From IMG/VR virus record IMGVR_UViG_3300036820_000020, positions 1-59,104 of that record: a stretch of 59,104 bases of DNA; one strand, 5' to 3'. This document shows, piece by piece, positions 1,690 through 59,104 of this stretch. Source of the DNA: a virus. Lineage: Duplodnaviria > Caudoviricetes. Both the position numbers and the translations under genes were made by a program. Numbering within the stretch: position 1 is the first letter of the stretch; every line of letters begins with the position of its first letter. The notes beneath the pieces are model-generated. The model was not told the origin of the DNA. It did no database searches and saw only the letters and a program-made list of their open reading frames with translations.

Positions 1690-2700
1690 ATGCCAAAAGT
1701 ATCGAGCGCGCCAGAAGACGCATTGCATTTCAAAGGATCATACGCCGATGGATGGGGAGAAGTAGTGGACGCCAAAGCCGTTGTTTTCCAATACCCGCCA
1801 GATAAGTCTACCGGCCGCCAGGACACACCGTCACTTTTCTGCGAGCTGACGATTCAGCGCTATCGCGAACCCGAGACTAAAGACGCGACAGCCCCGGAAT
1901 CAATCATGTTGTCTATTCAACGCAGCGACAAAATGACGGGGGAACTGTCCCTCGTTCACCCCGGCAAATATCCCAACGGCAACTTGGAAGCGGACCCCGA
2001 AGACATGAGCGGAGGTCTCGGTGCCGAAGGAGACACCCTGTTCGCTCTTCAGGACGGCTACCAGATCAACGACAAGACCAAATGGATGAGATTTACCCAG
2101 TCCCTAGTCGAAAAGGGCTTCAAGCCGGCGGTCCTGAAGCGGACGTACTTCCCAGATTTGGTAGGTCTGCGCGCCTACTTCACGAATCTGACGGAGAAAA
2201 AGTTCCGGGATGACCAGACCAGCGATCCGACGGTCTTTGTTGTCAAGGAGATCCGGCAGTTCCCTTATGAAAAGAAAGCCGTGGCCAAAGGCAAACCTGC
2301 CGCCGCGGAAAAGAAAACGGCTGCGGCTGCGGCTGCGGCTGCCGCTAAGCCGGTGAACGGAGCGCCAACTCCGTCAACTCTATCAGCACCCGAAGAGACC
2401 GCGGACGGAATTGGCGGCGGTTCGGCTGCCGCCGAAGATATCGCGTTCGACATTGTCAAAAACACCCTCGCGCCCGCCAAGAAAGGAACGACAATCGCGT
2501 CTCCCGGAGATCCGCAGGCTGGCATCAACCGCTTGAAAATCGAAGCCTACCTGGCCATCAACAGACACAAACCGGCGGTACCGGCGGCCCTAAAGAAAGC
2601 TGTGCAGGAGAAGCTCGGGGACACGACGTGGCTGGAGGCAATCGGAGCGGTGAACGAACTGTTTTCACTTGGCGAGGATGGGTCGGTGACATTCCAATGA
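1690..2700 (+). CDS. Hypothetical replication protein (possible ssDNA-binding protein)
   Basis: ATG 1690 follows a purine-rich RBS; Ala/Lys-rich linker; lies in the replication block. Function is inferred from position only. Confidence 0.6.
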   Translation: MPKVSSAPEDALHFKGSYADGWGEVVDAKAVVFQYPPDKSTGRQDTPSLFCELTIQRYREPETKDATAPESIMLSIQRSDKMTGELSLVHPGKYPNGNLEADPEDMSGGLGAEGDTLFALQDGYQINDKTKWMRFTQSLVEKGFKPAVLKRTYFPDLVGLRAYFTNLTEKKFRDDQTSDPTVFVVKEIRQFPYEKKAVAKGKPAAAEKKTAAAAAAAAAKPVNGAPTPSTLSAPEETADGIGGGSAAAEDIAFDIVKNTLAPAKKGTTIASPGDPQAGINRLKIEAYLAINRHKPAVPAALKKAVQEKLGDTTWLEAIGAVNELFSLGEDGSVTFQ

Positions 2701-3152
2701 GAACGCTTACCGACCACATTGTCAGTATGGATCAAGCCGTTCAGTTGCAGATAGAGGTGCTGGACGAACCTGGTGCTGGCGGCGCTTGTCATCAGTATTC
2801 GATTGGCTGGAACGCCATCAAGACGCTCCTCCCGACGATTGCAGAGTTAGAGGCCATCCTGGAGAAGGGGGAAACCCTATCGATATCTCCAGACAGTCAG
2901 CATTTCTCGCTCGGGAACACGTGTTTCATAGGGTTCCAGAACGGCCCTATCAAAGAGTTCGGCGTCAACGGCATCACGCAAGAGGCTCTACTGGCTATCG
3001 TCATTGACCGTCTTCGCTCCTTTCAGACTGGCCCGTTTTCCTGCCGGGAGAACGCAATCGCCCTGACACACATTGAAGAAGCTCTCATGTGGCTTCAGCG
3101 GCGCACCGTAGCAAGAATTAAGCGGGGAGTAGAAGGCACAATCCAAAAGTAA
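2697..3152 (+). CDS. tad1: Tad1-family anti-Thoeris/anti-CBASS nucleotide-signal sponge
   Basis: GAGGACHQY ... FQNGP ... LLAIVIDRLRSFQTGPFSCRENAIALTHIEEALMWLQRR..R..RGVEGT matches the Tad1 signature as I recall it. ATGA overlap with the upstream gene. Confidence 0.88.
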   Translation: MRTLTDHIVSMDQAVQLQIEVLDEPGAGGACHQYSIGWNAIKTLLPTIAELEAILEKGETLSISPDSQHFSLGNTCFIGFQNGPIKEFGVNGITQEALLAIVIDRLRSFQTGPFSCRENAIALTHIEEALMWLQRRTVARIKRGVEGTIQK

Positions 3153-9026: not shown

Positions 9027-9198
9027 AGCTGAATTGATAGACATTGAGCGCCAGATATTGAAACGATACAGAGATATAAAAGACGAAGACGACGAAGACG
9101 ACGAAGACAACAAAGACAACGAATACGACTATGTGTTTTTATCTGACATGCTGCGTCTGGTAGAGATTATCCGAGATCACAGTATTGCCCTTGCCTGA
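8971..9198 (+). CDS. Small acidic hypothetical protein
   Basis: GAGGAG RBS upstream; internal 9-bp DED repeats. Confidence 0.55.
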   Translation: MQTQTVKIKTAKTATVIYEAELIDIERQILKRYRDIKDEDDEDDEDNKDNEYDYVFLSDMLRLVEIIRDHSIALA

Positions 9199-12076
9199 TA
9201 TCTATACCTACTTCCGCGATCCCTGTCCGAGTTGTCCAAGGAAATCGAGAGCTATTGGAGGAGACGGTCCGCAACCAGCTCGTATCTTAGCGATTATGGA
9301 GCGTCCCGGCCAGGACGAATCCAGGCACGGCAGAGTCGCCTGCGGCAAGGCCGGCCAGGAACTAGATGACTTGTATCTTCCCCTGGCTGGTCTGGACCGG
9401 TCCGAGATCCGGGTTTGCAACACTGTCCTGTGCGGCGAGCCGAATAATAAGAAACCGACTGGCAAGGAAATAGCCGGATGCGCCCCGTTCCATATCCCGC
9501 GGGAAATTGAACGGACGAATCCGGAAGTCATATTGCTTCTGGGAGCGTCCGCCTGCTCTCTTGTAACGAACGGCAAAGGGATCGATTTAGAAGCGGCGCA
9601 CGGGATACCCCAACCTACTAGCAAAGTTGGGGATCTGTTTGGCTGGCAAGGCGTGGTTGTACCTATGTTTCACCCCGCTCAAGGGTTGCATGAAGGCCGG
9701 TGGATGCAGACGGCCATGGAAGATTGGCGGAGACTAGGTGAGTTCTTTCAATTTGGAGACGACGGCGATCCGGAGATAGAACCGTATGACTATTCACTTG
9801 CTGAAGCCGTGGATATTGCGGGTGACATTGGAGCGTCAAGCAGAATCAGTATCGACACTGAAAGTCACGACGGTAAGCCTTGGTCTATACAATACAATCA
9901 AGCGTCTGGAATGGGCCGTATCGTTCTCGTTAAAGAAGCCGAAGCGCTATACCACTTACAGCGATTGGTGCGAGAAGCGGAGGAAGTGATCTTTCATAAC
10001 GCCTCGTACGACCTCGAAGTCCTACGAAAACTCGATATCCACGTTCGTTGTTACCGTGACACGATGCAAGAGGCTTTTCACTTAGGAAACCTGCCGCAAG
10101 GTCTCAAGCCGCTGGTCTACAGGCTCTTTCGTCACACCATGACTTCGTACAAAGAGACAGTCTGGCCGGCGTCTATCCTAAATCTACAGGAATGGATGTT
10201 CGAAGCGGTCCAGATAGCCGAATCCGACCTGTCGTTTAAAGAGCAGAAGAAGAAAAGCGTCAAGGTTCATAAAGGAGAATTGGAATCTCTTCTGACCAGG
10301 CTGTTGAGACTGGCGCGGCCACATTCGGATTACGATCCGTGGGATAGACTGGACGCTTTCTGGAAAGACCCTTTGAACTCCTGGATGGTATCGCATATGG
10401 AGAACCGGATAGGTAAATACCCTGTCTTAGGTATCGCCAATTGCAAGATGAAAGACGCGATCCGGTATGCTGTCGGAGATGCCGACTGGACAGGCAGAGC
10501 GGCTGTGGAACTGGCACGGCGGCGGCAGACTGCATTTCAGATTTACGATACAGACCGGGACAACCAGGACAACCGGGACAACCGGGACGGCCAAGACGTC
10601 CAGGACACGTTAAATCAATTGAAGCTGTTCGGAGGCGTCACACTTCCAGGCAAGCCCGACCTGGATAACATCCGGCGTCTGGACGCGATGATCATTCCAC
10701 AGTTAAATAGAATGTCTCGGATAGGAATAGGAATAGACGTTCCTTACCTCCAGGATCTCTCCAGCCAATTCGAAAAGGAAATGAAAGACCTGGAGTCTCA
10801 GATCTCTTCTTATATCCCCGCCTGGGCGCTCAATCAATTCTCTTCTCAGGCCGCCGTGATCGAGGAAGAGGAAGGACTAGCTGCTCTGAACGCTTCGAGC
10901 GCGGTACAGATCCGGACATTACTCTTCGATCTGTTGAAAGTCGGGCGCGACCAGAAGCTCAAATCAACTTCCACAGGCAAAGTGTCTACCGGACGAAAGA
11001 ATTTAGACAAGGTGAGAGACGATCACCCGGTCGTCCCACTGATTCTACAGTATCGGGAAAGACAGAAGCTGAAGGAATCGTTTTGTGACTCTTTGCCTGT
11101 ACTGGCAAAGCTTCACCCTGTCTCTAGTTGTTGTCCGATATGCGAACTTCCTCATCGTGTAGCGACTACACGGCTGCACACGGAATTCACGACCACCAGG
11201 GCTATCACTGGCAGGCTGTCCAGCCGCCGTCCCAACCTCCAGCAAATTCCTATCCGGTCCACTCTGGGCTCTCGTATCCGTGCCGCTTTCGTCGCGTCGC
11301 CGGGTACGAAACTGGTATCTGTAGACTTCTCTCAGATGGAAATCAGGGATCTCGCCCATCTTGCCAACGCCTGTTCTATCTTCAAAGTCTACGAGTCCGG
11401 CGGCGATATTCATGTCAACACAGCCGTCAAAGCGTTTGGCCTTAGAGACGCTTCGCAAGTCGATAAATACCGTCACCGCCTGCCCGCCAAACGAACGAAC
11501 TTCAGCATTCAGAACGGCACGACAGAGGAAGGCTTGTACGCTCAGTTGATCGGAGACTACTGGGCGGCTGGCATCACTCCCCCCGATTGGCTTAACAAGG
11601 ACTGGTGCAAGGAATTCATCGCTTCCTGGCACCAGGCCTATCCGGAAGTCCAACCCTACTTTGACACTCAGTATTACCGGGCTCGCCGGTACGGTTTCGT
11701 ATGGGGACCTTGGGGACGGGCAAGATATATACCGCAGATCCGCTCGACGCACTTCTGGAAAGTGGAAGAGGGACTGAGAGAAGCTCAGAACTTCGCTGTC
11801 ACTAATTCTAACGCGGAACAAACGAAACTGGCGATGGCGGAATGCGAGAGCGAGTTTGAGATTGTGAGAGAGAACGGCGTCTATTGCGAGGCGCTATTGT
11901 CTATTCATGACCAGGTGATAACGGAAGTAGACGAAGCATATGCTGATTTCATAGGTTCTCGAATGACTTACATCTTTGAGCATGTGATGGACGACCGGGT
12001 AACTAAGAAACGGATGTGGCGATGTCTGATCAAGGCGGACTGCGATATCCTGGACCGCTGGCACGCCAAGGAATAA
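9185..12076 (+). CDS. polA: Family A DNA polymerase with N-terminal family-4 UDG-like domain and 3'-5' exonuclease
   Basis: UDG: CxxC, ERPG..E...G...G.AG, HPA. Exo I IDTE, Exo II HNASYD, Exo III YAVGD. Polymerase: TGRLSS..PNLQQIP, motif A DFSQMEIR, motif B RxxxKxxNF, motif C HDQ. Confidence 0.92.
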   Translation: MPLPDIYTYFRDPCPSCPRKSRAIGGDGPQPARILAIMERPGQDESRHGRVACGKAGQELDDLYLPLAGLDRSEIRVCNTVLCGEPNNKKPTGKEIAGCAPFHIPREIERTNPEVILLLGASACSLVTNGKGIDLEAAHGIPQPTSKVGDLFGWQGVVVPMFHPAQGLHEGRWMQTAMEDWRRLGEFFQFGDDGDPEIEPYDYSLAEAVDIAGDIGASSRISIDTESHDGKPWSIQYNQASGMGRIVLVKEAEALYHLQRLVREAEEVIFHNASYDLEVLRKLDIHVRCYRDTMQEAFHLGNLPQGLKPLVYRLFRHTMTSYKETVWPASILNLQEWMFEAVQIAESDLSFKEQKKKSVKVHKGELESLLTRLLRLARPHSDYDPWDRLDAFWKDPLNSWMVSHMENRIGKYPVLGIANCKMKDAIRYAVGDADWTGRAAVELARRRQTAFQIYDTDRDNQDNRDNRDGQDVQDTLNQLKLFGGVTLPGKPDLDNIRRLDAMIIPQLNRMSRIGIGIDVPYLQDLSSQFEKEMKDLESQISSYIPAWALNQFSSQAAVIEEEEGLAALNASSAVQIRTLLFDLLKVGRDQKLKSTSTGKVSTGRKNLDKVRDDHPVVPLILQYRERQKLKESFCDSLPVLAKLHPVSSCCPICELPHRVATTRLHTEFTTTRAITGRLSSRRPNLQQIPIRSTLGSRIRAAFVASPGTKLVSVDFSQMEIRDLAHLANACSIFKVYESGGDIHVNTAVKAFGLRDASQVDKYRHRLPAKRTNFSIQNGTTEEGLYAQLIGDYWAAGITPPDWLNKDWCKEFIASWHQAYPEVQPYFDTQYYRARRYGFVWGPWGRARYIPQIRSTHFWKVEEGLREAQNFAVTNSNAEQTKLAMAECESEFEIVRENGVYCEALLSIHDQVITEVDEAYADFIGSRMTYIFEHVMDDRVTKKRMWRCLIKADCDILDRWHAKE
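11158..11170. promoter_or_regulatory. Palindromic site 2 TGTAG-CGA-CTACA
   Basis: Inside polA; extends to CGTGTAG..CTACACG. Confidence 0.7.
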
Positions 12077-12510: not shown

Positions 12511-12628
12511 CCGCCGCCAGCCGCCGCCAGCCGCCGCCAGCCGCCGCCAGCCGCCGCCAGCCGCCGCCAGCCGCCGCCAGCCGCCGCCAGCCGCCGCCAG
12601 CCGCCGCCAGCCGCCGCCAGCCGCCGCC
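12511..12628. repeat. (CCGCCGCCAG)x11 minisatellite plus a partial unit
   Basis: Perfect 10-bp units between the two convergent gene blocks. Confidence 0.97.
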
Positions 12629-49306: not shown

Positions 49307-49537
49307 ATGGAAAAACGAATTGTAGTCATCGCCGCGGTGAGCCAAGAGCAACTCGAAAACGACGGATGTGATGTCGAGCAGGAATGTGACACCATCGCAC
49401 ACGCCAAGCAGCGCGCCAAGTACTACCTCACCGAGGAGTATATGAACTCAGCGGAATCCACCACCATGCTGGGATACTCCCAGGTAAAGGTGAACGGCGT
49501 AGTTGAGTACGATTTCTTCGGAAAGGGGGTGAAGTGA
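49307..49537 (+). CDS. Small hypothetical protein
   Basis: Downstream of the promoter; GTGA overlap with the next gene. Confidence 0.65.
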   Translation: MEKRIVVIAAVSQEQLENDGCDVEQECDTIAHAKQRAKYYLTEEYMNSAESTTMLGYSQVKVNGVVEYDFFGKGVK

Positions 49538-50100
49538 TCATGAGACTGATTGACACCATTCACCAAGCCGGCAGCGGGACCGGCCTCGACGGAGCCAATC
49601 TCAGTTGGTCTGACCTCCGCAAGGCTCGCTTCAGCGGTGTATGCCTCAGCCAAGCCAATCTTAGCTGGTCCGACCTCCGCGGGACCGATCTCAGCGGGGT
49701 CAATTTACGCGGGGCCAATCTCCGCGGGGCATGCCTCAGCGGGGCCGATCTCCGCGGGGCCGATCTTAGCGGAGCCGACCTCCGCGGGACCGACCTCAGC
49801 GGGGCCAACCTACGCGGAGCCGATCTCAGCGGAGCCGATCTCAGCGGAGCCGACCTCAGCGGGGCCGACCTCAGTTGGTCCGACCTCAGCGGGGCCAACC
49901 TCAGCGGAGCCAACCTCAGCGGAGCCAACCTCAGCGGGGCCGATCTCAGCGCGGCGGACCTCCGCGGGGCCAATCTCAGTTGGTCCAATCTTAGCTGGTC
50001 TGACCTTCGCGGAGCCAATCTCCGCGGATCCAATCTCCACGGCGCATGCCTTAACGGTACCTGTCTCAACGGACTGTTAAACAAAGAGGTACTACTGTGA
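49534..50100 (+). CDS. Pentapeptide-repeat protein
   Basis: About 30 A(D/N)L(S/R)G units. Confidence 0.92.
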   Translation: MIMRLIDTIHQAGSGTGLDGANLSWSDLRKARFSGVCLSQANLSWSDLRGTDLSGVNLRGANLRGACLSGADLRGADLSGADLRGTDLSGANLRGADLSGADLSGADLSGADLSWSDLSGANLSGANLSGANLSGADLSAADLRGANLSWSNLSWSDLRGANLRGSNLHGACLNGTCLNGLLNKEVLL

Positions 50101-51222: not shown

Positions 51223-51291
51223 AAGGAACGCGCGGGGCTCCGCGGCAATCGAGGCGCGAGTCAGTGACGCCCAGGCCAAGGAGACCCGCGT

Positions 51292-51355
51292 CCAGAAGTC
51301 CAGAAGTCAGAAGTCCAGAAGTCAGAAGTCCAGAAGTCAGAAGTCCAGAAGTCCA
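51292..51355. repeat. AGAAGTC(C) heptad/octad array
   Basis: About 8 units; inverted copies at about 51474-51495. Confidence 0.85.
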
Positions 51356-51371
51356 GGACCCTTTTCCCATG

Positions 51372-51496: not shown

Positions 51497-52579
51497 TTAG
51501 TTCCGGGAGGCCATTTCTGGCACATTCAGGCCAATCTCGGCAAAGTCATCTACCTGAATCCCTGGCTGGGATCGGAGATAGCTTGTACTAACTGGCAGTT
51601 TTTCCGATTCCTCCAGGATCAATTCCAGAGCCGAAGTTTTCAGCCTGTCGCCGCTTCCAAACAGCGCTGATTCCGCCCGGCCATCGCCTTTCGTAGTCCT
51701 GGCGTGGTCAGTGTAGTTTGTAATCGCGTTTAGCAGGCACAATGGCGTGCCGGCTTGGACCGGGAACGCGCTGTTGTCATTCGATTCATAAAGCGCCGAG
51801 ATCGCGGCAAGTATGTTATCTCGCCTGGCCGAATGGACTTCTTTCGATTCATCTTTGGCTTGCTTGCGAATGGGAAACAATCGATCGAGGATAGCCGCGT
51901 AGCTGTCGTGAGTCATCCGCCGGCTAGCCAGAAAGTTCAGCTTTTGCTCGACTGTCTCTGTGTCTTTTCGAAAAGCTTGCAAAGCCTGTTGGGCGTCGGC
52001 GATTTTGGCGCCGGCGTTAACCGTATGCCGAATTTTGAATTGCGCGGAAGCGTTCTCGCTGAGCGCGACATTCAAAGTGTTTTGGCAAACAACTCTTTCG
52101 ATACAAGTCCGGAGCTGATAGCTCATAGATCCGTCATGCCCCGTGGCGAACAGTAGATACGGTTTGCTTTCGTCTTCGCCGACGTGAATCCGCAGTCCCA
52201 GGTCCGCCAAACCCCATACGACTTCGCCTTTCCCAAGTGCTCCCGCGGTTTCGTAGTGGGCGCCATCCGTGGCTGTCATCAGCTTATCGATCAATTCAAA
52301 TCCGGATGCGTGATTGATAATACGGTAGTCTTTGCCAACTGTGCCAAGGAATTCCGCGGCGCCGGCATTCTTCATAATTTTGTCCTGATGGTTCCAGCGG
52401 AACACTCCCCAAGCTTCAACTGGCCGATTCAGACTGTCTTTGAGCTGTGACTTGAACACGTCGAAGTCCAGGCCTCCGGCGGCCAAGATTTCCTGCCAGG
52501 TCATATAGCGGCCAGTGACCTGTCCGAGTGAATGCCAAGCCGCCTGCCGTCCGATATAAGTGTTGATGTTGTGTGCCAT
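51497..52579 (-). CDS. DUF932 family (phage/plasmid TIGR03299-like) protein
   Basis: AWHSLG, YETAGAL..G, HDGS, RVVCQNTL, IRHT and NAITNY.DH motifs. Confidence 0.88.
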   Translation of the reverse strand: MAHNINTYIGRQAAWHSLGQVTGRYMTWQEILAAGGLDFDVFKSQLKDSLNRPVEAWGVFRWNHQDKIMKNAGAAEFLGTVGKDYRIINHASGFELIDKLMTATDGAHYETAGALGKGEVVWGLADLGLRIHVGEDESKPYLLFATGHDGSMSYQLRTCIERVVCQNTLNVALSENASAQFKIRHTVNAGAKIADAQQALQAFRKDTETVEQKLNFLASRRMTHDSYAAILDRLFPIRKQAKDESKEVHSARRDNILAAISALYESNDNSAFPVQAGTPLCLLNAITNYTDHARTTKGDGRAESALFGSGDRLKTSALELILEESEKLPVSTSYLRSQPGIQVDDFAEIGLNVPEMASRN

Positions 52580-53970: not shown

Positions 53971-54015
53971 TGGACTGTGGACTGTGGACTGTGGACTGTG
54001 GACTGTGGACTGTGG
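53971..54015. repeat. (TGGACTG)x6 heptamer array
   Basis: Read directly from the sequence. Confidence 0.9.
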
Positions 54016-54110
54016 ATCATATGGTCCTACAGGTCCATATGGACTACGCGCGCGCGTGTATGTTCGCTATATGGGGCGTCACGCTATATATAAAATATCC
54101 GATTTATCCG

Positions 54111-54123: not shown

Positions 54124-54130
54124 TGCCAAC

Positions 54131-54196
54131 GGAAGTCAGAAGTCGGAAGTCAGAAGTCGGAAGTCAGAAGTCGGAAGTCGGAAGTCGGAAGTCAGA
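54131..54196. repeat. (RGAAGTC)x9 heptamer array
   Basis: Lies between the palindrome at 54111 and the promoter at 54225; same unit as the 51.3-kb array. Confidence 0.9.
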
Positions 54197-54224
54197 AAAC
54201 GCCAAATCAGAAAATTATTGATTA

Positions 54225-54253
54225 TTGACTTCACCGGCATCTATTGTTACGCT
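54225..54253 (+). promoter_or_regulatory. Promoter of the HTH-parB-replication operon
   Basis: TTGACT-N17-TACGCT with an extended TG; ATG at 54263. Confidence 0.55.
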
Positions 54254-54262
54254 GGTGTGCTA

Positions 54263-54619
54263 ATGCCGGAAAATCTACCACCGGGACCACCGCCGGAAAT
54301 CCCGCCAGCGTCAAAAATCCCCCGGTCGCCGCTTTTTCCCAATCGCGGCGCCGGCACATCTGGAAAGAAACCGGTCCTATACCCCGATATCAGTTTTCAG
54401 TTGCTAGGCCAGGCGGTCGGCATAGATCCGACCTACGCTGGCAGGATTATGAACGGCAAAGTCCGCCCGTCGATGCAAGTAGCGGAACGGTTGGCCGCGG
54501 TGATGGGATGGACGGTAGACCAGGTGGCCGCGTTATACCACAGCCAAAAAACCGAGGCACTCAAAAGAGTCAAAAGAGTCAAAAGCGTCAAAAGAGTCAA
54601 AAGCATCCGAATGAGTTAA
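54263..54619 (+). CDS. XRE/Cro-like HTH transcriptional regulator
   Basis: LGQAVGIDPTYAGRIMNGKVRPSMQVAERLAAVMG. Confidence 0.8.
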   Translation: MPENLPPGPPPEIPPASKIPRSPLFPNRGAGTSGKKPVLYPDISFQLLGQAVGIDPTYAGRIMNGKVRPSMQVAERLAAVMGWTVDQVAALYHSQKTEALKRVKRVKSVKRVKSIRMS

Positions 54620-54621
54620 AA

Positions 54622-55887
54622 ATGGCAAGAGTAGAAACCAACGTCGAAACCGGGAGCGAAAGTGAAAGCGATCTGCTTCTACTTCACTCTCCGCTTACAG
54701 ACCGGATCGTTTTCGTTCGTCCAGCCCGTCTGAAGATTGAAAAACTCAACCACGCCAGGCCAGGACCAACTCCACCGCAAGAGCAATCCAGACTCTCTTC
54801 ACTAGCCCAGTCTATGAGGGAGAATGGCCAGTTGACTCCTGTACTAGTCACTGAGTATAGCGGCAGCGGCGGTAACGGCTCCTGGGACTACGCTTTGATC
54901 GACGGTAGGCGCCGGCGTGACGCCGCGCTCCTGATCGAACGCGAAGACAGCATGGAATTCCCATTAGCCTGTGTGGTCGCGTCCGGTCTAGACGACCCTT
55001 TGAAAGCTGGCATCCACGCCAACAAACACGCCCCTCTGACCCCTTTGCAATTCGCCTATCTGTGTAAGCAAGTCAGAAAAGTACACGGATGGCATGGCAC
55101 AAAGGAAGTCGCGGAGTACCTTGGGGTGTCTAGAGCGCAGGTTAGTCAACACGACAAGTTGCTTACCAGACCGGAAGGCATGACCAAGTCCGCCTATGAA
55201 GACCTGTTGTCCAAGGTGGGAAGTAGGCGATGGGGTAGCGAAGCGGCTTTCTATACTCTTACGCACGTAGAACCAGTAAAAGCCGATCAGGTGATAGCCA
55301 GAGCGGAGGAATTGGCCACTGAAGAAACCGGGGAAACCGAGGAATTTTCTGAAGTGCCCGAAGAATCGTCAGAATCGCCCCAGGAAGCATCGGAATACGA
55401 AGAGAGCCAGTCGGATACCTCTACCCCTCAACAAATCGATCCTGGAGAGTCTGAGACGCGGCAAACAGGCAAAGAGAAACGGGTGAGGAGTGACGGGAAG
55501 CGTGACAAAGACATCAAAACACCGGAATGGATGAAAGAACAGAAGCAGAAATCGAAAGAGAGAGTAGCGGCCAAAAAAGCGGCTAAAACGACAGCTAAAG
55601 AGACAGCCAGACCGTCCGCGTCTGTTGGACGCAGGCATGTTGAAAAAGCGGCCAGGGAAGCCGCGGCTCTCAAATCGACGGCGCCGCAATCGCAATCCAG
55701 AGGCGTTCCGGATCTCCTTCGCCTTTTGGAATTACTAAGTGGAGATGGATATCCGAAACTGATGAGGGAGTTTGCGGATGCGCTGCGGACTTCCTGGTGG
55801 ACAGGCCAAGTCGATGATGAACATATCGTGTGGCGGTGGGAGGCTATCGCTTCCGATGTCAGGTTCAGGTACGAGCGGGAAGGTTAG
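54622..55887 (+). CDS. ParB-family (KorB/Spo0J-like) protein with HTH
   Basis: LAQSMRENGQLTPVLV, LIDGRRR (GxxR CTP-binding patch), HAN, and HTH TKEVAEYLGVSRAQVSQH. Confidence 0.85.
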   Translation: MARVETNVETGSESESDLLLLHSPLTDRIVFVRPARLKIEKLNHARPGPTPPQEQSRLSSLAQSMRENGQLTPVLVTEYSGSGGNGSWDYALIDGRRRRDAALLIEREDSMEFPLACVVASGLDDPLKAGIHANKHAPLTPLQFAYLCKQVRKVHGWHGTKEVAEYLGVSRAQVSQHDKLLTRPEGMTKSAYEDLLSKVGSRRWGSEAAFYTLTHVEPVKADQVIARAEELATEETGETEEFSEVPEESSESPQEASEYEESQSDTSTPQQIDPGESETRQTGKEKRVRSDGKRDKDIKTPEWMKEQKQKSKERVAAKKAAKTTAKETARPSASVGRRHVEKAAREAAALKSTAPQSQSRGVPDLLRLLELLSGDGYPKLMREFADALRTSWWTGQVDDEHIVWRWEAIASDVRFRYEREG

Positions 55888-55946
55888 GAAGAATAAGTGT
55901 TTTTTATGTGACTGGCGCGCCGTATAAGAATTTATCTGTACGTTGT

Positions 55947-57275
55947 ATGGCTCAAAGTGATACATTTTACAACGTGCCTATCGCCGCGGCGCCACTAACT
56001 GATTCTGATTCTTCGTCTTATTCTAAATTGAGACCGTTCCTGGTATCTTCCACACGGTCTCCTCTGGCGGACCCTAAAACACCGATCCATAGACTAGCCT
56101 GCGCCATCCAGTCCTACTTATACTTTCCAGATCCAAGTCCGTTATATGCGGTATGTGGGACTGTAATAGCAAATAGTCTCCGTGGTTATCCGGTATGGCT
56201 CATGCTGATCGGACCGCCGGAATCGGGTAAGACGGAACTATTAAAACCGTTATTGGGAATAGACGGCTGCGTCGAGTGCGGGGATATCTCGGGCAAAGGC
56301 GCGTTGCTATCGGGAACGCCGGCCTCCCAACGAACCCAGGATTCTACAGGTGGACTGCTCAACACGATAGACAAGCAGAGAGGCGTCCTGGTCATGCTGG
56401 ACTTTGCCAGGACAGTCCTGGCCTCGGATATGAGGGAGATGAGATCGACCCTCGGAGCGATCGGAATGCTCCATGACCAGCATTACAAAAGATCAATTGG
56501 AGCCGACGGCGGACGGTCTATCACTTTCGATGGCAAGTTAGGCTGGATAGCGGCTTCGACAGACGCTATAGACCACCCGGATAACCACCAGGCTAATTCA
56601 GAAATGGGAGACAGGTGTCTCTATTATCGCTATCCTGTCTCGACCGGGTATCACGAGATATCGAGCGCCTTGGATAATCCCGACAGCAGTTATAAGACTC
56701 AAAAGATCCAAGGGCTATTCAAGACCTGGCAAGAAGAGATCGGGTTGGATTGGGAGCATCTGGCGCCCCCGCGGACGCTTGAAGAAGATGAGAAACGGCG
56801 GGTATCGGCGCTCGCGCAGTTTTGCGCGAGAGCCAGGTCAGCCGTTTACCGGGATCGCTGGAGACAGGAGGTAGCGGGGATATCAAGGGCCGCGCTGGGG
56901 CCGAGAATAGCTAACTCGCTGGCTCAATTGCTTCGCGGCATGGAACACATCGGATGTACGCAAGAGGAAATCTGGAAGGTGTTGTGTCACACCGCTATAG
57001 ATTCTATACCCGCTGTCAGAGCGCACATTCTAAAACTGTTACAGGAAGACAGACAGACATTGCAGGAAGTCGCCGACAAGATACAGATAGCATTGCCCGC
57101 GGCCAAAAGAACGATAGAGGATTTGCGTATCCACGACCTTGTAGCGCCTACACGGCCTAACGGTCAGTCTGATGGTCAGTCTGATGGTCAGACGGGCGGT
57201 CAGACCTGGACACTCAGTGAGAAAGGGAAAGGCCTGTTGGATTTTGGATGGCAGGGATCTAAAATAGAGACTTGA
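55947..57275 (+). CDS. AAA+/MCM-like replication ATPase with C-terminal winged HTH
   Basis: PVWLMLIGPPESGKTE, GGLL, VMLDF and DRCL motifs; C-terminal TLQEVADKI...AKRTIEDL. Confidence 0.75.
   Translation: MAQSDTFYNVPIAAAPLTDSDSSSYSKLRPFLVSSTRSPLADPKTPIHRLACAIQSYLYFPDPSPLYAVCGTVIANSLRGYPVWLMLIGPPESGKTELLKPLLGIDGCVECGDISGKGALLSGTPASQRTQDSTGGLLNTIDKQRGVLVMLDFARTVLASDMREMRSTLGAIGMLHDQHYKRSIGADGGRSITFDGKLGWIAASTDAIDHPDNHQANSEMGDRCLYYRYPVSTGYHEISSALDNPDSSYKTQKIQGLFKTWQEEIGLDWEHLAPPRTLEEDEKRRVSALAQFCARARSAVYRDRWRQEVAGISRAALGPRIANSLAQLLRGMEHIGCTQEEIWKVLCHTAIDSIPAVRAHILKLLQEDRQTLQEVADKIQIALPAAKRTIEDLRIHDLVAPTRPNGQSDGQSDGQTGGQTWTLSEKGKGLLDFGWQGSKIET
57140..57152. promoter_or_regulatory. Palindromic site 10 TGTAG-CGC-CTACA
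   Basis: In the 3' end of the ATPase gene; exact 16-bp inverse of sites 7 and 9. Confidence 0.75.
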
Positions 57276-57307
57276 CAAATATAGATTTAACAGGTATTGT
57301 TGAACAC

Positions 57308-57562
57308 GTGATTGCGGCAATAGTTCAAGCAGGATATCAATGGTCGTGGTCGTGGTCGCGGTCGGGGTCGCGGTCGGGGTCGTGGTCGTGGCCGGGGTCT
57401 CGGTCGTTGTCTTGGTTGTGGTCGCGGTCGGGATCGGGGTCAGGGTCGCGGTCGCAGTCGTGGTCGTGGTCGTGGTCGGGGTCGGAGTCACGGTCGTGGT
57501 CGTGGTCAGGGTCGGGTTCGAAGTTAAGCAAAGGAAAACAAAAATGGCAAACGAAAACGTAA
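57308..57562 (+). CDS. Ser-X repeat peptide, unit 0 (MIAAIVQAGYQ-WSWSWSRSG...)
   Basis: Start is GTG 57308 or TTG 57272; divergent leader; Ser at alternating positions. Confidence 0.6.
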   Translation: MIAAIVQAGYQWSWSWSRSGSRSGSWSWPGSRSLSWLWSRSGSGSGSRSQSWSWSWSGSESRSWSWSGSGSKLSKGKQKWQTKT

Positions 57563-57828
57563 AAACAAGCTTTTGGATCGTGGGCAAATCCTATCTGATC
57601 CGGACTGTAACAATGATCGACACGGGTATCCTCGTCTCGATAGACGAACACGAAATAGTCTTATCCGATGCCGCTTGGATTGCCGACACTGGCAGATTTA
57701 GCGCCGCTCTGCACTCCTCTGACTTTCTCGAAGTCGAACCGTTCCCGGACGGGACGCGGGTGGCTATTGGCCGCGGAAGTGTTATTGACGCAGTACAGAT
57801 TCCCACGGCGCCGCGAAAATTAAAATGA
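57544..57828 (+). CDS. Small Sm/LSm-like beta-barrel protein (DUF6948-like)
   Basis: AAGGA RBS; VGKSYLIRTVTMIDTG.LV......VL.DAAWIADTGRF...EVEP......GRGSVIDA. The fold is inferred from the strand pattern. Confidence 0.65.
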   Translation: MANENVKTSFWIVGKSYLIRTVTMIDTGILVSIDEHEIVLSDAAWIADTGRFSAALHSSDFLEVEPFPDGTRVAIGRGSVIDAVQIPTAPRKLK

Positions 57829-58037
57829 ACGCTGCCGTCTTACTGACTGTATACGAACAGTCGAGTTGGTCGCGATCGCGGTTGGGTTAGCGGTCGTGGT
57901 CGCGGTCGTGGTCGCGGTCGGGGTGGTGGGTGTGGTCGGGGTCGCGGTCTGGGTCGCGGTCGGGGTTGGGGTCGCGGTCTGGGTCGCGGTCGGGGTTGGG
58001 GTCGCGGTCACAGTCGGGGTCACGGTCGAATTGGTGA
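57825..58037 (+). pseudogene. Ser-X repeat peptide, unit 1, with premature TAG at 57888
   Basis: MNAAVLLTVYEQSSWSRSRLG*RSWSR...SNW*. The frame stays open to the conserved SNW-TGA. Confidence 0.7.
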
Positions 58038-58041
58038 GGTC

Positions 58042-58296
58042 ATGGCCACTGTCTTACTAAGCATATACGAACAGTCGAGTTGGTCGGGGTCGAGGTCGGG
58101 GTCGGGGGCGGGGTCGGGGTCGCGGGCGGGGTCGCGGTCGCGGTCGCGGGCGGGGTCGCGGTCGAGGTCGTGGTCGTGGTCATGGTTGTGGTCACGGTCG
58201 TGGTCGTGGTCGCGGTCGGGGTCGTGGTCACGGTCGGGGTCGCGGTCGGGGTCGCGGTCGCGGTCGGGGTCGTGGTCGGGGTCGCGGTCAAATTAG
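58042..58296 (+). CDS. Ser-X repeat peptide, unit 2
   Basis: GAGG RBS; leader MATVLLSIYEQSSW. Confidence 0.7.
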   Translation: MATVLLSIYEQSSWSGSRSGSGAGSGSRAGSRSRSRAGSRSRSWSWSWLWSRSWSWSRSGSWSRSGSRSGSRSRSGSWSGSRSN

Positions 58297-58347
58297 TAAG
58301 GTCGCGGTCGGGGTCGTGGTCGGGGTCACGGTCGAATTGGTGAGGTC

Positions 58348-58536
58348 ATGGCCGTTGTCTTACTAATCGTGTACGAACAGTCGAGTTGGTCGGGGTCGCG
58401 GTCAGGGTCTCGGTGGCGTTCGCGGTCGGGGCCGCGGCCGTGGCCGTGGTCTGGGTCGCGGTCACGGTTGTGGCCGTGGCCGTGGTCGCGGTCGGGGTCG
58501 TGGTCACGGTCGCGGTCGGGGTCGCTCGGAAACTGA
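58348..58536 (+). CDS. Ser-X repeat peptide, unit 3
   Basis: GAGG RBS; leader MAVVLLIVYEQSSW. Confidence 0.7.
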   Translation: MAVVLLIVYEQSSWSGSRSGSRWRSRSGPRPWPWSGSRSRLWPWPWSRSGSWSRSRSGSLGN

Positions 58537-58537
58537 G

Positions 58538-58801
58538 ATGAACGCCGTATTACTAGCCCTATACGAACAGTCGAGTTGGTCGCGATCGCGGTTGGGGACG
58601 CGGTCGTGGTCGTGGTTGTGGTCGTGGTCGCGGTTGCGGCCTTGGCCGGGGTCGTGTTCGCGGTCGGGACCGGGGTTATGGTCGTGGTCGTGGGTGGGGT
58701 CGGGGCCGCGGTCTGGGTCGTGGTCGGGGTCGTGTTCGCTGTCGCGGTCGGGGTCTCGGTCGCGGTCGGGGTCGTGGTCGGGGTCACGGTCGAATTGGTG
58801 A
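58538..58801 (+). CDS. Ser-X repeat peptide, unit 4
   Basis: TGA-G-ATG coupling; leader MNAVLLALYEQSSW. Confidence 0.7.
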   Translation: MNAVLLALYEQSSWSRSRLGTRSWSWLWSWSRLRPWPGSCSRSGPGLWSWSWVGSGPRSGSWSGSCSLSRSGSRSRSGSWSGSRSNW

Positions 58802-58805
58802 GGTC

Positions 58806-59030
58806 ATGGCCGTTGTCTTACTAATCGTGTACGAACAGTCGAGTTGGTCGGGGTCGCGGTCAGGGTCGTGGGTGCGGTCGTGGTCGTGGGTGCGGTCGTG
58901 GTCGCGGTCGCGGTCGCGGTCGTGGTCGTGGTTGTGGCCGTGGCCGCGGTCGCGGTCGGGGTCGTGGTCACGGTCGCGGTCGGGGTCGCGGTCACAGTCG
59001 GGGTCGGAGTCAAGGTCAACAATTAAATGA
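58806..59030 (+). CDS. Ser-X repeat peptide, unit 5
   Basis: GAGG RBS; leader MAVVLLIVYEQSSW; stop overlaps the helicase ATG. Confidence 0.7.
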   Translation: MAVVLLIVYEQSSWSGSRSGSWVRSWSWVRSWSRSRSRSWSWLWPWPRSRSGSWSRSRSGSRSQSGSESRSTIK

Positions 59031-59104
59031 GCGCAATCTTTACATCCTTGTTTCCCTCCGATCTCGGCTTGCCGCCTAAATTCACGTCTTATCGGCGCCA
59101 TCAA
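58978..59104. repeat. Direct terminal repeat, copy 2
   Basis: Identical to 1-127. Confidence 0.95.

What the first reader, a model, noticed from the sequence alone, without database searches (positions are those of the whole stretch)
57272..59030. Tandem array of six leader + (Ser-X)n mini-genes around an Sm-like protein gene
Seen: five ORFs start with a conserved 14-15-aa leader M(A/N)x(x)VLLxxYEQSSW (DNA core TACGAACAGTCGAGTTGGTCG). Each continues into 50-75 aa in which nearly every second residue is Ser (TCG) and the other is R/W/G (NGG codons). A sixth, divergent copy precedes the Sm-like gene. The bodies all differ, while the junction GGTCACGGTCGAATTGGTGAGGTCATGGCC (stop, RBS, ATG) recurs at 58018, 58324 and 58782. 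ATGA overlaps couple the array to the Sm-like gene and the helicase, which argues that this frame is translated. Inference: a precursor-like 'constant leader, hypervariable core' family paired with a small binding protein. Possible roles are RiPP-like Ser-modified peptides, RS-domain-like RNA-binding or condensate peptides acting with an Sm ring, decoys for host defence sensors, or a Ser/Trp/Arg-tRNA-sensitive translational gate before the helicase. I know of no characterised system with this layout.
Basis: partly seen in the sequence, partly recalled or inferred. Interest (0 to 1): 0.85.

Follow-up and report, generated by a model that had tools for sequence, protein, structure and literature searches.

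The report
Phage serine-repeat peptide gene array
A soil phage carries six tandem copies (one broken) of a tiny gene for a strongly basic peptide of serine alternating with tryptophan, arginine or glycine, beside a small Sm-fold protein gene; this gene pair is common in uncultured phages, changes very fast, and I found no description of it and no known function.

Summary
The 21-nt leader core occurs 5 times exactly and the 30-nt junction 3 times. ATGA overlaps tie the array to the 94-aa gene and to the helicase. Corrections: unit 1 is cut by a TAG after 21 codons, and the 'divergent' copy before the 94-aa gene has the family's canonical leader.

The Ser-X frame is a real coding frame. Of 105 related loci, 86 have 8 or more alternating Ser codons just behind the homologous 94-aa gene and 15 have 4-7. 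Ser is kept through TCG, TCA, TCT, AGC and AGT, and X is almost only NGG. The leader (M-N-A-A-V/I-L-R-x-G-F/Y-D) is conserved with free synonymous codons. The 94-aa protein has an Sm/LSm fold. Neighbouring genes are not conserved, so the pair is a self-contained cassette.

Arrays change between otherwise near-identical phages, only at the first base of X and by 6n indels. This window holds a lineage-specific amplification.

Function is untested. My best guess is disordered polycationic, aromatic peptides acting with the Sm-like protein on nucleic acids. I found no publication. Earlier AI notes of this scan reported the same cassette on other DNA.

The parts
57272..57300 (+). Promoter-like site TTGACA-17-TATTGT just before copy 0. 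It is a weak lead only.
   Evidence: 10 of 12 matches, but 1 site found against 1.6 expected in shuffles, so not significant.
57308..57562 (+). Copy 0: a Ser-X micro-gene with the canonical family leader (MIAAIVQAGYQWS...). It is 84 aa, net charge +10, with 13 Trp. The start is uncertain (GTG 57308 or TTG 57272). It overlaps the start of the Sm-like gene by 19 nt.
   Evidence: the leader matches the family consensus.
57544..57828 (+). 94-aa Sm/LSm-fold protein gene. This is the short form, lacking the N-terminal helix motif of most relatives.
   Evidence: AF2 pLDDT 93. Top PDB folds are archaeal SmAP1 and Sm/LSm chains. No Pfam or PHROG match. At least 1086 related 90%-identity clusters. N-terminal comparison.
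57825..57890 (+). Unit 1: ATG in ATGA overlap with the Sm-like stop, then the leader MNAAVLLTVYEQSSW. It is cut by TAG 57888-57890 after 21 codons, so this copy is broken.
57891..58037 (+). Leaderless remainder of the unit 1 Ser-X body, in the same frame, ending at TGA 58035-58037.
   Evidence: GTG ORF 57930-58037 lies in that frame.
58042..58296 (+). Unit 2: 84-aa Ser-X micro-gene, net charge +13, preceded by GGTGAGG and a 4-nt spacer.
58297..58347 (+). Stranded array fragment plus a junction copy. It is part of a segment that recurs before unit 5 and so marks a recent duplication.
58348..58536 (+). Unit 3: 62-aa Ser-X micro-gene, net charge +9.
58538..58801 (+). Unit 4: 87-aa Ser-X micro-gene, net charge +10. 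Its leader MNAVLLALYEQSSW is like that of unit 1.
58806..59030 (+). Unit 5: 74-aa Ser-X micro-gene, net charge +11. Its stop overlaps the helicase ATG (ATGA at 59027-59030).
59027..59104 (+). Start of the 537-aa DEAD_2 / Helicase_C_2 helicase gene. It continues through the terminal repeat and is the same as 50-1663.

Best explanation
The region is a lineage-specific tandem amplification of the second gene of a widespread, undescribed two-gene phage cassette. Six copies are present and one is broken. Gene 1 encodes a small, mildly acidic Sm/LSm-fold protein. Gene 2 is translationally coupled to gene 1. It encodes a microprotein of about 55-100 aa: a conserved N-terminus of about 11 aa followed by (Ser-X)n, with X = Trp, Arg or Gly in roughly equal parts. 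Each unit is one hexamer, a Ser codon plus NGG.

Shown: the Ser-X frame is the one under protein-level selection; the pair travels together without other conserved neighbours; the arrays are hot spots that change by 6n indels and by changes confined to the first base of the X codon.

Inferred mechanism: the peptides are intrinsically disordered, strongly basic polymers (pI about 12) with Trp and Arg as interaction points ('stickers') and Ser and Gly as flexible 'spacers' between them. They act together with the Sm-like protein as a split version of an 'Sm core plus low-complexity tail', binding or condensing RNA or single-stranded DNA early in infection. The conserved N-terminus would be the docking or recognition motif. 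Slippage and unit-to-unit conversion keep re-tuning length and Trp/Arg/Gly order.

I put about 0.9 on the genetic part (a real, translated, conserved cassette amplified here). I put about 0.35-0.4 on the nucleic-acid or condensate mechanism. The number below is for the whole statement.
For: Co-occurrence:
- 98 relatives of the 94-aa gene are in IMG/VR, of which 79 loci were kept. A further 27 loci are in GTDB MAG contigs.
- Of 105 loci with the complete 3' end of the gene, 86 have 8 or more uninterrupted alternating Ser codons within 300 nt downstream. 15 have 4-7 and 4 have none, 2 of those on short flanks.
- All Ser-X runs lie on the strand of the Sm-like gene.
- 54 of 86 Ser-X ORFs start in a 4-nt overlap with the Sm-like stop, and 78 of 86 start within -8 to +15 nt of it.

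Frame:
- Ser positions use TCG 1174, TCT 667, TCA 602, AGC 331, AGT 56 and TCC 47 times. The codon is homogeneous within a locus and tracks GC content: TCG loci have mean GC 0.55, the others 0.40-0.44.
- AGY-type arrays (12 of 85) are scattered on the Sm-like tree, and well-supported branches force at least 2 switches.
- L066 has a TCA array and AGC arrays in one locus.
- Leader: in 46 distinct canonical leaders Arg7 uses all six Arg codons and Gly9 all four Gly codons. In the arrays of the same ORFs Gly is GGG in 95% of 714 codons and Arg is CGG or AGG in 96% of 693. In flanking ORFs the figures are 21% and 33%.
- ORFs end 0-3 aa after the last S[RWG] in 72 of 78 complete ORFs.
- One GenBank record annotates such a 43-aa CDS.

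Fold: pLDDT is 93. Top PDB matches are Sm/LSm chains, with SmAP1 at rmsd 1.3-1.4 A and TM by target 0.74-0.79. The LSm domains of Edc3 and LSm14 also appear.

Cassette autonomy: apart from the Sm-like gene and two clusters of antisense ORFs over it, no gene family is shared by more than 9 loci.

Composition:
- 64 arrays with 1853 X positions give W 0.27, R/K 0.33, G 0.33 and D/E 0.006.
- The Trp share is near-binomial across arrays (dispersion 1.23).
- Identical neighbours are fewer than expected: 564 against 650 of 1687.
- Median net charge is +9.5 and pI 12, against pI 5.1 for the barrel.

Turnover:
- L021 and L024 differ at 3 of 5900 nt. Two of these lie in the 264-nt Ser-X ORF, both at the first base of an X codon.
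- L024 and L083 have identical Sm-like genes and 3737 identical downstream bases. Their arrays differ at 10 N positions and by 24- and 18-nt indels.

Amplification recurs: 15 of 107 loci have 2 or more runs and 3 have 6 or more (window, L050, L067).

Sister module: in L052 a DUF6948 gene (E 4e-22) is followed by a coupled Gly-(Tyr/Asn/Asp) repeat ORF built on GGC-NAC. The variable base is again the first base of the X codon.
Against: - There is no direct evidence of expression, of peptide stability, of binding between the two products or of nucleic-acid binding.
- The Sm-like protein matches no Sm/LSm/Hfq sequence model: 0 of 40 members at E up to 1. Ring formation was not tested.
- In the long-form relative modelled, the N-terminal helix is separated from the barrel by a floppy linker (the 15 residues between helix H8-18 and the first strand; residues 21-24 have pLDDT under 50). 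The window's protein lacks the helix altogether.
- No fused Sm-repeat protein was found among 9 longer relatives; all 8 whose sequences I read (the ninth was not fetched) are N-terminal extensions.
- A purely protein-level model does not by itself explain why the silent third base of Arg and Gly codons stays G. A nucleic-acid-level constraint is therefore not excluded.
- In this window units 1-5 have Leu and Val where the family has Arg7 and Gly9, and unit 1 is broken. Units 2-4 also carry GGG and GGC variants that are silent in the Gly-Arg frame but give Ala or Pro in the Ser-X frame. These extra copies may be under relaxed selection.
- The order and number of units rest on one short-read assembly.
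Confidence: 0.4

Rival explanations
1. Anti-defence or host-takeover decoy. The fast-evolving Trp/Arg peptide binds a host protein, in the way exposed Trp flanked by Gly or Ser in GW182-type 'Ago hooks' and viral GW mimics bind Argonaute, or as a mimic of an RS or RGG tail. The Sm-like protein serves as chaperone or co-factor.
For: The pair behaves like an accessory cassette that moves between unrelated gene neighbourhoods. It evolves much faster than its flanks, as arms-race genes do. In this phage an Acb2/Tad1-hairpin protein lies 3.6 kb further on in the same operon direction. SWS and GSW motifs in a disordered chain resemble W-motifs; this resemblance is recalled, not tested.
Against: No target is known and no defence gene co-occurs. 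The change between near-identical phages is length and order shuffling, not directed substitution. Whether prokaryotic Argonautes have Trp-binding pockets is not known to me.
Confidence: 0.15
2. The nucleic acid itself is (also) the functional part. This would be an RNA or DNA with GG every 6 nt, G-rich on the coding strand. It could be the ligand of the Sm-like protein (as the TRAP ring binds spaced GAG/UAG triplets), or an R-loop or G-quadruplex-prone stretch in the replication module. Translation would then be secondary or regulatory.
For: Positions 5 and 6 of the hexamer are G in 93-95% of units, although the third base is silent for Arg and Gly. In the leader of the same ORFs these codons vary freely. 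The array lies between replication genes, and the window from 56001 to 58000 has the highest GC skew of the genome (0.150). Arrays always lie directly behind the Sm-like gene on the same strand.
Against: The spacer is always a Ser codon, across the TCN and AGY codon families, which a nucleic-acid motif does not explain. The start codon and leader are conserved at the amino-acid level. The RNA has no unusual fold: z = -1.35, and 23 of 200 shuffles fold as well. NGG can also be explained because Trp has only TGG, and NGA or NGY units would give a stop or Cys when the first base changes.
Confidence: 0.12
3. Membrane-active or toxic Arg/Trp peptides, like synthetic (RW)n antimicrobial peptides, used for host killing, exclusion of other phages or lysis timing.
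For: The composition fits: Trp 27%, Arg/Lys 33%, almost no acidic residues, and alternation with Ser that would put Trp and Arg on one face of a strand.
Against: The gene sits among early or replication genes, not lysis genes. There is no signal peptide or transmembrane segment. The constant Sm-fold partner is unexplained.
Confidence: 0.05
4. RiPP-like precursors: a leader recognised by an enzyme, and Ser residues modified in the core.
For: The layout of constant leader and variable Ser-rich core fits, as do the several tandem precursor-like genes here.
Against: No modifying enzyme, protease or transporter is conserved next to the pair in the loci (104 loci for the Sm-like gene; no other family in more than 9). 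The leader is only about 11 aa. Cores of 50-90 aa with free length changes are unlike known RiPP cores. The partner has an Sm fold, not a known leader-recognition element.
Confidence: 0.04
5. Translational gate or attenuator: runs of rare NGG codons slow ribosomes and set expression of the coupled downstream gene (here the helicase).
For: ATGA coupling to the helicase. NGG codons are minor codons in flanking genes: GGG is 21% of Gly codons, and CGG plus AGG are 33% of Arg codons. The phage encodes no tRNA.
Against: The downstream gene is not conserved across loci. Leader conservation and retention of Ser are not needed for a gate.
Confidence: 0.04
6. The translated product is the Gly-Arg frame (GGT-CGN), or the region is a non-coding microsatellite or an assembly artefact.
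For: Within this window the variable base is the silent third base of CGN. GGG and GGC variants are also silent in that frame. All six frames are open. Logan contigs break at the shared junctions.
Against: In all 5 units the Gly-Arg frame has a stop inside the leader and no ATG, GTG or TTG before the array. In relatives that frame reads Gly-His/Gln, Gly-Leu or Gly-Ala, so it is not conserved, and in 10 of 69 arrays it holds a stop. The unique bodies of the units are each present at 100% identity in separate contigs of run X1, at depths of 8.7-24 against 17.8 for the flank. X1 is probably the source sample, so this is a consistency check only.
Confidence: 0.04

Closest known systems
Eukaryotic Sm/LSm proteins with basic dipeptide-repeat tails (SmD1, SmD3, SmB Arg-Gly repeats; LSm4). 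Recalled knowledge; earlier notes of this scan also named it.
   Same: A small Sm-fold core is associated with a basic, disordered dipeptide repeat. The fold match to Sm/LSm chains was tested here.
   Different: Here the repeat is a separate, translationally coupled gene with its own conserved N-terminus. It is Ser-(Trp/Arg/Gly), not Arg-Gly. There is no Sm1/Sm2 sequence signature. Ring formation and RNA binding are untested. No fused form was found.
Hfq with a repeat C-terminal domain, e.g. Acinetobacter baumannii Hfq with GGFGGQ repeats (PMC11617691; abstract and introduction read)
   Same: A bacterial Sm core plus a long, repetitive, disordered low-complexity extension whose repeat number matters for RNA-related function.
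   Different: That is one polypeptide with Gly/Phe/Gln repeats and an acidic tip. It is a chromosomal host gene, not a phage cassette, and has no Hfq-model match here.
LSm-domain scaffold proteins of mRNA decay granules (Edc3, LSm14/Tral). They appear among the fold hits 6am0_D, 6f9w_A and 2vxe; their biology is recalled.
   Same: LSm-type barrels that, by the PDB titles, sit in complexes with short peptides of partner proteins. This is a precedent for an Sm-like barrel docking a short conserved motif such as the Ser-X leader.
   Different: The similarity is at fold level only (E about 1e-3). Docking of the leader is not shown here.
[quoted passage not shown]
   Same: Small phage early proteins with a predicted LSm-like fold and a suspected RNA role.
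   Different: There is no sequence relation, and no repeat-peptide partner is mentioned ('repeat' occurs once in an unrelated sense; 'tryptophan' and 'disordered' occur 0 times).
DUF6948 (PF22253) gene plus Gly-(Tyr/Asn/Asp) repeat gene, as in L052:4572-5133
   Same: The architecture is the same: an N-terminal motif M-N-I-N-D-L-T-I-G-E-A-K, a small barrel, and a coupled dipeptide-repeat ORF built from a hexamer whose only variable base is the first base of the X codon. The structural match of the window's protein to DUF6948 models has E 7.7e-4 and TM 0.70.
   Different: The repeat is acidic (net -7) instead of basic. There is no detectable sequence homology of the barrels (hhalign probability 0.1; 0 of 40 match DUF6948). 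This module is itself undescribed (0 papers hold 'DUF6948').
SR/RS domains and GW182-type Trp motifs (recalled)
   Same: Disordered chains of Ser-Arg dipeptides, or of Trp flanked by Gly or Ser, that mediate multivalent binding.
   Different: There is no RRM and no known kinase or Argonaute partner. The strict two-residue period is encoded by a hexamer microsatellite.

Membership tests
Sm/LSm/Hfq superfamily | Strongly bent five-stranded antiparallel beta-barrel (Sm fold) | tested here: met
   AF2 models have pLDDT 93 (window protein) and 88 (long-form relative). Nearly all top Foldseek PDB hits are Sm/LSm chains, e.g. 1i8f and 1lnx with rmsd 1.3-1.4 A and TM by target 0.74-0.79. E-values are only 7e-4 to 5e-3.
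Sm/LSm/Hfq superfamily | N-terminal alpha-helix packed before strand 1 | tested here: inconclusive
   The window protein has no helix and residues 1-15 are unstructured. The long-form relative modelled has a helix (residues 8-18, pLDDT about 72-75), but the 15 residues between it and strand 1 (19-33) have no assigned secondary structure and the block of residues 21-30 averages pLDDT 58.
Sm/LSm/Hfq superfamily | Sm1/Sm2 sequence motifs, i.e. a match to LSM, Hfq or SM-ATX models | tested here: not met
   No Pfam family for the window protein at E up to 0.01. 0 of 40 family members match any Sm-type model at E up to 1. No PDB chain matches the profile by sequence, best E 0.5.
Sm/LSm/Hfq superfamily | Ring oligomer (hexamer or heptamer) and RNA binding | not testable with these tools
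DUF6948 (PF22253) | Match to the Pfam model above its cut-off | tested here: not met
   0 of 40 members match. There is only structural resemblance. The L052 neighbour gene does match, at E 4.4e-22.
RiPP precursor peptides | Co-located modifying enzyme with a leader-recognition element, plus a protease or exporter | tested here: not met
   Besides the Sm-like gene no family is shared by more than 9 loci, and that family is a helicase.
Diversity-generating retroelement target | Reverse transcriptase and a template repeat whose adenines map to the variable bases | tested here: not met
   No RVT_1 match in the complete genome. TRF lists no (Ser codon + AGG)n template-like array elsewhere in the window.
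Phage 'Sm-like gene + Ser-X repeat micro-gene' cassette (undescribed; defined here and in earlier notes of this scan) | Sm-like gene directly followed on the same strand by an ORF with the leader M-N-A-A-(V/I/L)-x-R-x-G-(F/Y)-(D/E) and (Ser codon + NGG)n | tested here: met
   Window: copy 0 has the canonical leader; units 1-5 have a variant leader (Leu7, Val9) but the same body.

The most novel reading that the evidence does not exclude
This would be a new class of phage-encoded, genetically tunable polymer. A hexamer microsatellite is laid out so that only one base per unit, the first base of the X codon, can vary. At that base any of the four letters gives an allowed residue: Trp, Arg or Gly here, and Tyr, Asn or Asp in the sister module. 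Slippage and unit-to-unit conversion then rewrite the length and pattern of a sticker-and-spacer polyelectrolyte within otherwise identical genomes. Together with its Sm-fold partner it would build RNA or DNA condensates, or soak up a host defence or RNA-handling factor. Tandem amplification, as in this phage, would raise the dose.
Probability: 0.25. Interest if true: 0.85.

Novelty: categorically new. Interest (0 to 1): 0.72.

Why it matters
The partner gene alone forms at least 1086 clusters at 90% identity in public data, all unnamed. The repeat peptides are invisible to homology search: 0 hits for unit 4. They are unmatched in PHROGs. They are sometimes read in the wrong frame (P0124). They also coincide with assembly breaks: 18 of 79 IMG/VR contigs end within 400 nt after the Sm-like gene. 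So a common piece of phage biology is currently unannotated.

If the peptides work with an Sm-fold protein on RNA or DNA, this would be a bacterial-virus counterpart of the eukaryotic 'Sm core plus low-complexity tail' and granule-scaffold logic. It would also be a natural, very simple sticker-spacer system for studying condensates.

The codon-level design also shows how a microsatellite can serve as a fast evolutionary dial for a protein's composition. One base per hexamer is free. Silent positions stay frozen in the array but vary freely in the leader of the same ORF.

Tried and rejected
- Gly-Arg frame. At first sight the variable base is the wobble of CGN, and GGG/GGC variants are silent there. 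I rejected it because a stop lies in every leader and no start precedes the array, and relatives read Gly-His/Gln, Gly-Leu or Gly-Ala in that frame.
- Read-through fusion of the Sm-like ORF to that frame. Rejected because two in-frame stops lie between them here, and the short 'off 3' ORFs of most relatives end in the leader.
- DGR-type mutagenesis. No reverse transcriptase is present.
- RNA structure of unit 2. z = -1.35, not unusual.
- Promoter and terminator scan. Nothing above chance.
- Complex prediction, Sm-like protein (alignment A1) with the first 40 residues of the Ser-X protein (A2). No verdict: score 0.00 and controls not run. This is neither for nor against binding.
- Sequencing runs. 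No RNA holder is listed.
- Reads of run X1. No listed contig piece lies on the shared junction and leader stretches between the unit bodies, and no piece spans the whole array. Order and copy number therefore could not be checked.
- Runs X2 and X3. They hold only hexamer-like pieces (shares 0.08 and 0.05), so I draw no habitat claim from them.
- Exact 21-nt core in IMG/VR. 0 matches.
- Relatives of the 481-aa upstream gene in IMG/VR. None.
- tblastn of the Sm-like protein in 50,697 phage records. Only 1 record.
- Homology search with unit 4. 107 candidates, none at E up to 0.001.
- PHROGs for the Sm-like protein and three units. No family.
- Profile search of PDB sequences. Nothing below E 0.5.
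- Fused Sm-repeat proteins. None among 9 longer relatives; I fetched and read 8 of the 9 (P0122, 617 aa, was not fetched).
- Profile comparison of the Sm-like family with the L052 DUF6948 protein. No homology detected.
- Literature. Five searches found no description of a Ser-X or dipeptide-repeat gene paired with a phage Sm-like gene. The library lacks most subscription journals, and supplements were closed and not consulted, so a mention there cannot be excluded.
- tRNA genes. None in the phage.

Full report
**What is in the window**

The window is a complete 59,104-bp virus record. Its last 127 bases repeat its first 127. Between a 481-aa gene with no family match (55830-57275; a weak HTH hit only) and a DEAD_2/Helicase_C_2 helicase gene lie these parts:
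- a Ser-X ORF (57272/57308-57562);
- a 94-aa gene (57544-57828);
- five units that each begin with the leader M(A/N)x(x)VLLxxYEQSSW.

The 21-nt core of that leader is present 5 times without mismatch, and no shuffle reaches that. The 30-nt 'stop, GGTGAGG, ATG' junction is present 3 times. ATGA overlaps join the 94-aa gene to unit 1 and unit 5 to the helicase.

- Unit 1 is interrupted by TAG at 57888-57890 after 21 codons, and its Ser-X body runs on leaderless to 58037.
- The copy upstream of the 94-aa gene is not the divergent one. Read from GTG 57308 it begins MIAAIVQAGYQWS, which is the family-wide leader. Units 1-5 have Leu and Val at the two best-conserved leader positions.

A 51-nt array fragment with a junction copy (58297-58347) belongs to a segment that recurs before unit 5, so the array has been duplicating recently.

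**Which frame**

(GGTCGN)n is open in all six frames. Inside this window the variable base is the silent third base of CGN, so poly-Gly-Arg looked attractive at first. Comparison with relatives decides against it.

The 94-aa gene has 98 relatives in IMG/VR, of which 79 loci were kept. It has 27 more loci in MAG contigs. In 86 of 105 loci with a complete 3' end, a run of 8 or more alternating Ser codons follows within 300 nt. Another 15 loci have 4-7 such codons, and 4 have none.

The hexamer differs by lineage: GGTCGN, GGTCAN, GGTCTN or GGAGCN. What these share is a Ser codon followed by NGG. Counts at the Ser position are TCG 1174, TCT 667, TCA 602, AGC 331, AGT 56 and TCC 47. Counts at the X position are TGG 796, GGG 737, CGG 703 and AGG 195.

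The Gly-X frame would read Gly-Arg, Gly-His/Gln, Gly-Leu or Gly-Ala. In this window it has a stop in each leader and no start codon before the array.

The choice of Ser codon follows local GC content. AGY-type arrays are scattered over the tree of the partner gene, and well-supported branches force at least two switches. One locus, L066, has TCA and AGC arrays side by side.

The ORFs start in a 4-nt overlap with the partner's stop in 54 of 86 loci, and within -8 to +15 nt of it in 78 of 86. They end 0-3 residues after the last repeat in 72 of 78 complete ORFs.

The leader M-N-A-A-(V/I/L)-x-R-x-G-(F/Y)-(D/E) is kept with free synonymous change. In 46 distinct leaders Arg7 uses all six Arg codons and Gly9 all four Gly codons. 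My filter required these two residues, so their presence is by construction; the codon diversity is not.

One GenBank record annotates such a 43-aa CDS as a hypothetical protein. I take the Ser-X frame as translated, with about 0.9 confidence. There is no direct expression evidence.

**The odd codon pattern**

Within arrays Gly is GGG in 95% of 714 codons, and Arg is CGG or AGG in 96% of 693 codons. In flanking ORFs of the same loci the figures are 21% and 33%. The leader of the very same ORFs uses all synonyms.

Hexamer positions 5 and 6 are G in 93-95% of units, while position 4 is nearly random (entropy 1.91 bits). So one base per unit is free and five are held.

Two explanations remain.
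- Protein-level explanation. Trp has only TGG, and NGA or NGY units would give a stop or Cys whenever the first base changes. Fast turnover would then purge silent variants while selection keeps a Trp/Arg/Gly mixture. In support, the Trp share is close to binomial across 64 arrays (dispersion 1.23). Identical neighbours are fewer than composition predicts, 564 against 650 of 1687. Acidic residues make up 0.6% of X positions.
- An added constraint on the RNA or DNA. I cannot exclude this one.

**Speed of change**

L021 and L024 differ at 3 of 5,900 aligned bases. Two of the three lie in the 264-nt Ser-X ORF, both at the first base of an X codon.

L024 and L083 have identical partner genes and 3,737 identical bases downstream. 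Their arrays differ at 10 first-base positions and by indels of 24 and 18 nt.

Because units differ only at that base, slippage, unequal exchange and short conversion between units would all show up in just this way. No reverse transcriptase is present.

**The partner**

AlphaFold2 gives a confident barrel (pLDDT 93). Its best PDB matches are almost all Sm/LSm chains: archaeal SmAP1 at rmsd 1.3-1.4 A, spliceosomal Sm proteins, and the LSm domains of Edc3 and LSm14. E-values are modest, from 7e-4 to 5e-3.

There is no sequence-model match in Pfam or PHROGs, and no PDB match by profile. The family has at least 1086 clusters at 90% identity, none named.

Most relatives carry an extra N-terminal motif, M-x-I-D-D-L-T-I-G-E-A-K-x-L-A-x-M-F, predicted as a helix on a floppy linker. 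The window's protein and its closest relatives lack it.

The barrel is mildly acidic (median pI 5.1) and the peptides are very basic (median net charge +9.5, pI 12). No fused Sm-repeat protein was found among 9 longer relatives (8 of the 9 read).

**Context**

Apart from the partner gene and two clusters of antisense ORFs over it, no gene family is shared by more than 9 loci, and that family is a helicase. The two genes therefore form a self-contained cassette that sits in different, mostly early or replication neighbourhoods.

Multi-copy states recur. Of 107 loci, 15 have two or more Ser-X runs and 3 have six or more: this window, L050 and L067. All runs are on the partner's strand. The nearest relative, L004, has one run, so the six copies here are a lineage-specific amplification.

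In L052 a second cassette follows the first. It is a true DUF6948 gene (E 4e-22) with the same N-terminal motif, plus a coupled Gly-(Tyr/Asn/Asp) repeat ORF built on GGC-NAC. That repeat is acidic, and again only the first base of the X codon varies. The design principle is therefore wider than Ser-NGG.

**Assembly**

In run X1, which is probably the source sample, separate Logan contigs carry the unique body of each unit at 100% identity. Their depths are 8.7-24, against 17.8 for the flank. This is consistent with the assembly but does not verify the order or number of units.

**Mechanism**

These points are shown:
- a conserved, coupled gene pair;
- protein-level selection on Ser and on the leader;
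- a basic, Trp/Arg-rich, acid-free, well-mixed composition;
- hypervariability.

The mechanism itself is inferred. The peptides would be disordered sticker-and-spacer polycations. They would work with the Sm-fold protein on RNA or single-stranded DNA, as a split analogue of Sm or Hfq cores with low-complexity tails. The leader would serve as the docking motif. I give this about 0.35-0.4.

The rivals, each with its tests under Rival explanations, are:
- a fast-evolving decoy for a host protein (0.15);
- a function of the GG-periodic nucleic acid itself (0.12);
- a membrane-active peptide (0.05);
- RiPP-like precursors (0.04);
- a translational gate (0.04);
- the wrong frame, non-coding DNA or an artefact (0.04).

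**Comparison with what is known, and novelty**

The nearest analogies are these:
- Sm/LSm proteins with Arg-Gly tails (recalled);
- Acinetobacter Hfq with GGFGGQ repeats (PMC11617691; abstract and introduction);
- LSm-domain granule scaffolds that hold partner peptides (PDB titles);
- the T4 LSm-like early proteins (PMC12152347; abstract and passages).

None has a separately encoded hexamer-built dipeptide-repeat partner. Five searches of the paper library found no description of the cassette. Subscription journals and supplements were not covered.

Earlier AI notes of this scan had already reported the same cassette on other genomes. I used them as leads only and re-derived the claims here. 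I rate the system as categorically new in kind, with function open, and its interest at about 0.72.

Noticed in passing
L052:3905-5133: Two cassettes lie in tandem. The first is an Sm-like gene plus a basic Ser-X ORF. The second is a DUF6948 gene (E 4.4e-22, weak SM-ATX hit) plus a coupled acidic Gly-(Tyr/Asn/Asp) repeat ORF on GGC-NAC hexamers. The DUF6948 protein starts with the same M-N-I-N-D-L-T-I-G-E-A-K motif that long forms of the window's family carry.
   Followed up: partly
window 57272-57340: The N-terminus of the TTG-started ORF (T-N-I-D-L-T-G-I-V-E-H-V...) faintly resembles the N-I-D-D-L-T-I-G-E-A-K helix motif that relatives have at the start of the Sm-like gene. That motif is missing from the window's 94-aa gene. 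Copy 0 might therefore be a hybrid, made when an array expanded between helix and barrel. This is a similarity seen by eye only.
   Followed up: no
window, whole genome (e.g. 12511-12628, 53971-54016, 54130-54197, 51290-51356): Short tandem repeats are unusually many: 62 TRF rows, several of them perfect, such as CCGCCGCCAG x11.8 and TGGACTG x6.6. This phage seems generally prone to slippage, which may have favoured the six-copy array. First-reader notes on this genome make the same point and suggest the atypical PolA as a cause; I did not test that.
   Followed up: no
window 9185-12076: The family A DNA polymerase has an N-terminal uracil-DNA-glycosylase-superfamily domain fused to it (UDG E 3e-15, exonuclease, DNA_pol_A E 3e-72).
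   Followed up: no
window 2628-3152: A 174-aa protein with an Acb2/Tad1 hairpin domain (E 1.3e-8) is a likely anti-CBASS or anti-Thoeris sponge. It lies in the same operon direction a few genes after the helicase.
   Followed up: no
window 49534-50100 and 51497-52579: A pentapeptide-repeat protein (E 3e-61) and a DUF932 protein (E 2e-46) are encoded in the phage.
   Followed up: no
IMG/VR loci; protein P0124: 18 of 79 related IMG/VR contigs end within 400 nt after the Sm-like gene, i.e. inside or at the repeat. At least one public gene call (P0124) reads an upstream array in the Val-X frame and fuses it to the Sm-like ORF. The repeats therefore coincide with contig ends and can mislead gene callers.
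   Followed up: partly
runs X2, X3 laid on window 57270-59045: A permafrost and a lake-water metagenome hold 42,023 and 7,346 contigs at 90% likeness or more to the hexamer arrays. Loose ends read ...ATGAACGCAGCTGTTATC..., a canonical leader start. GGTCGN-type arrays seem very abundant in environmental data, though not all of these need belong to this cassette.
   Followed up: no
window 54244-57275: Upstream of the array lie a ParB-like protein (PHROG 1033, E 7e-18) and a 481-aa protein with a GPPESGKT P-loop-like motif. The latter has no family match and no relative in IMG/VR by the pattern search.
   Followed up: partly
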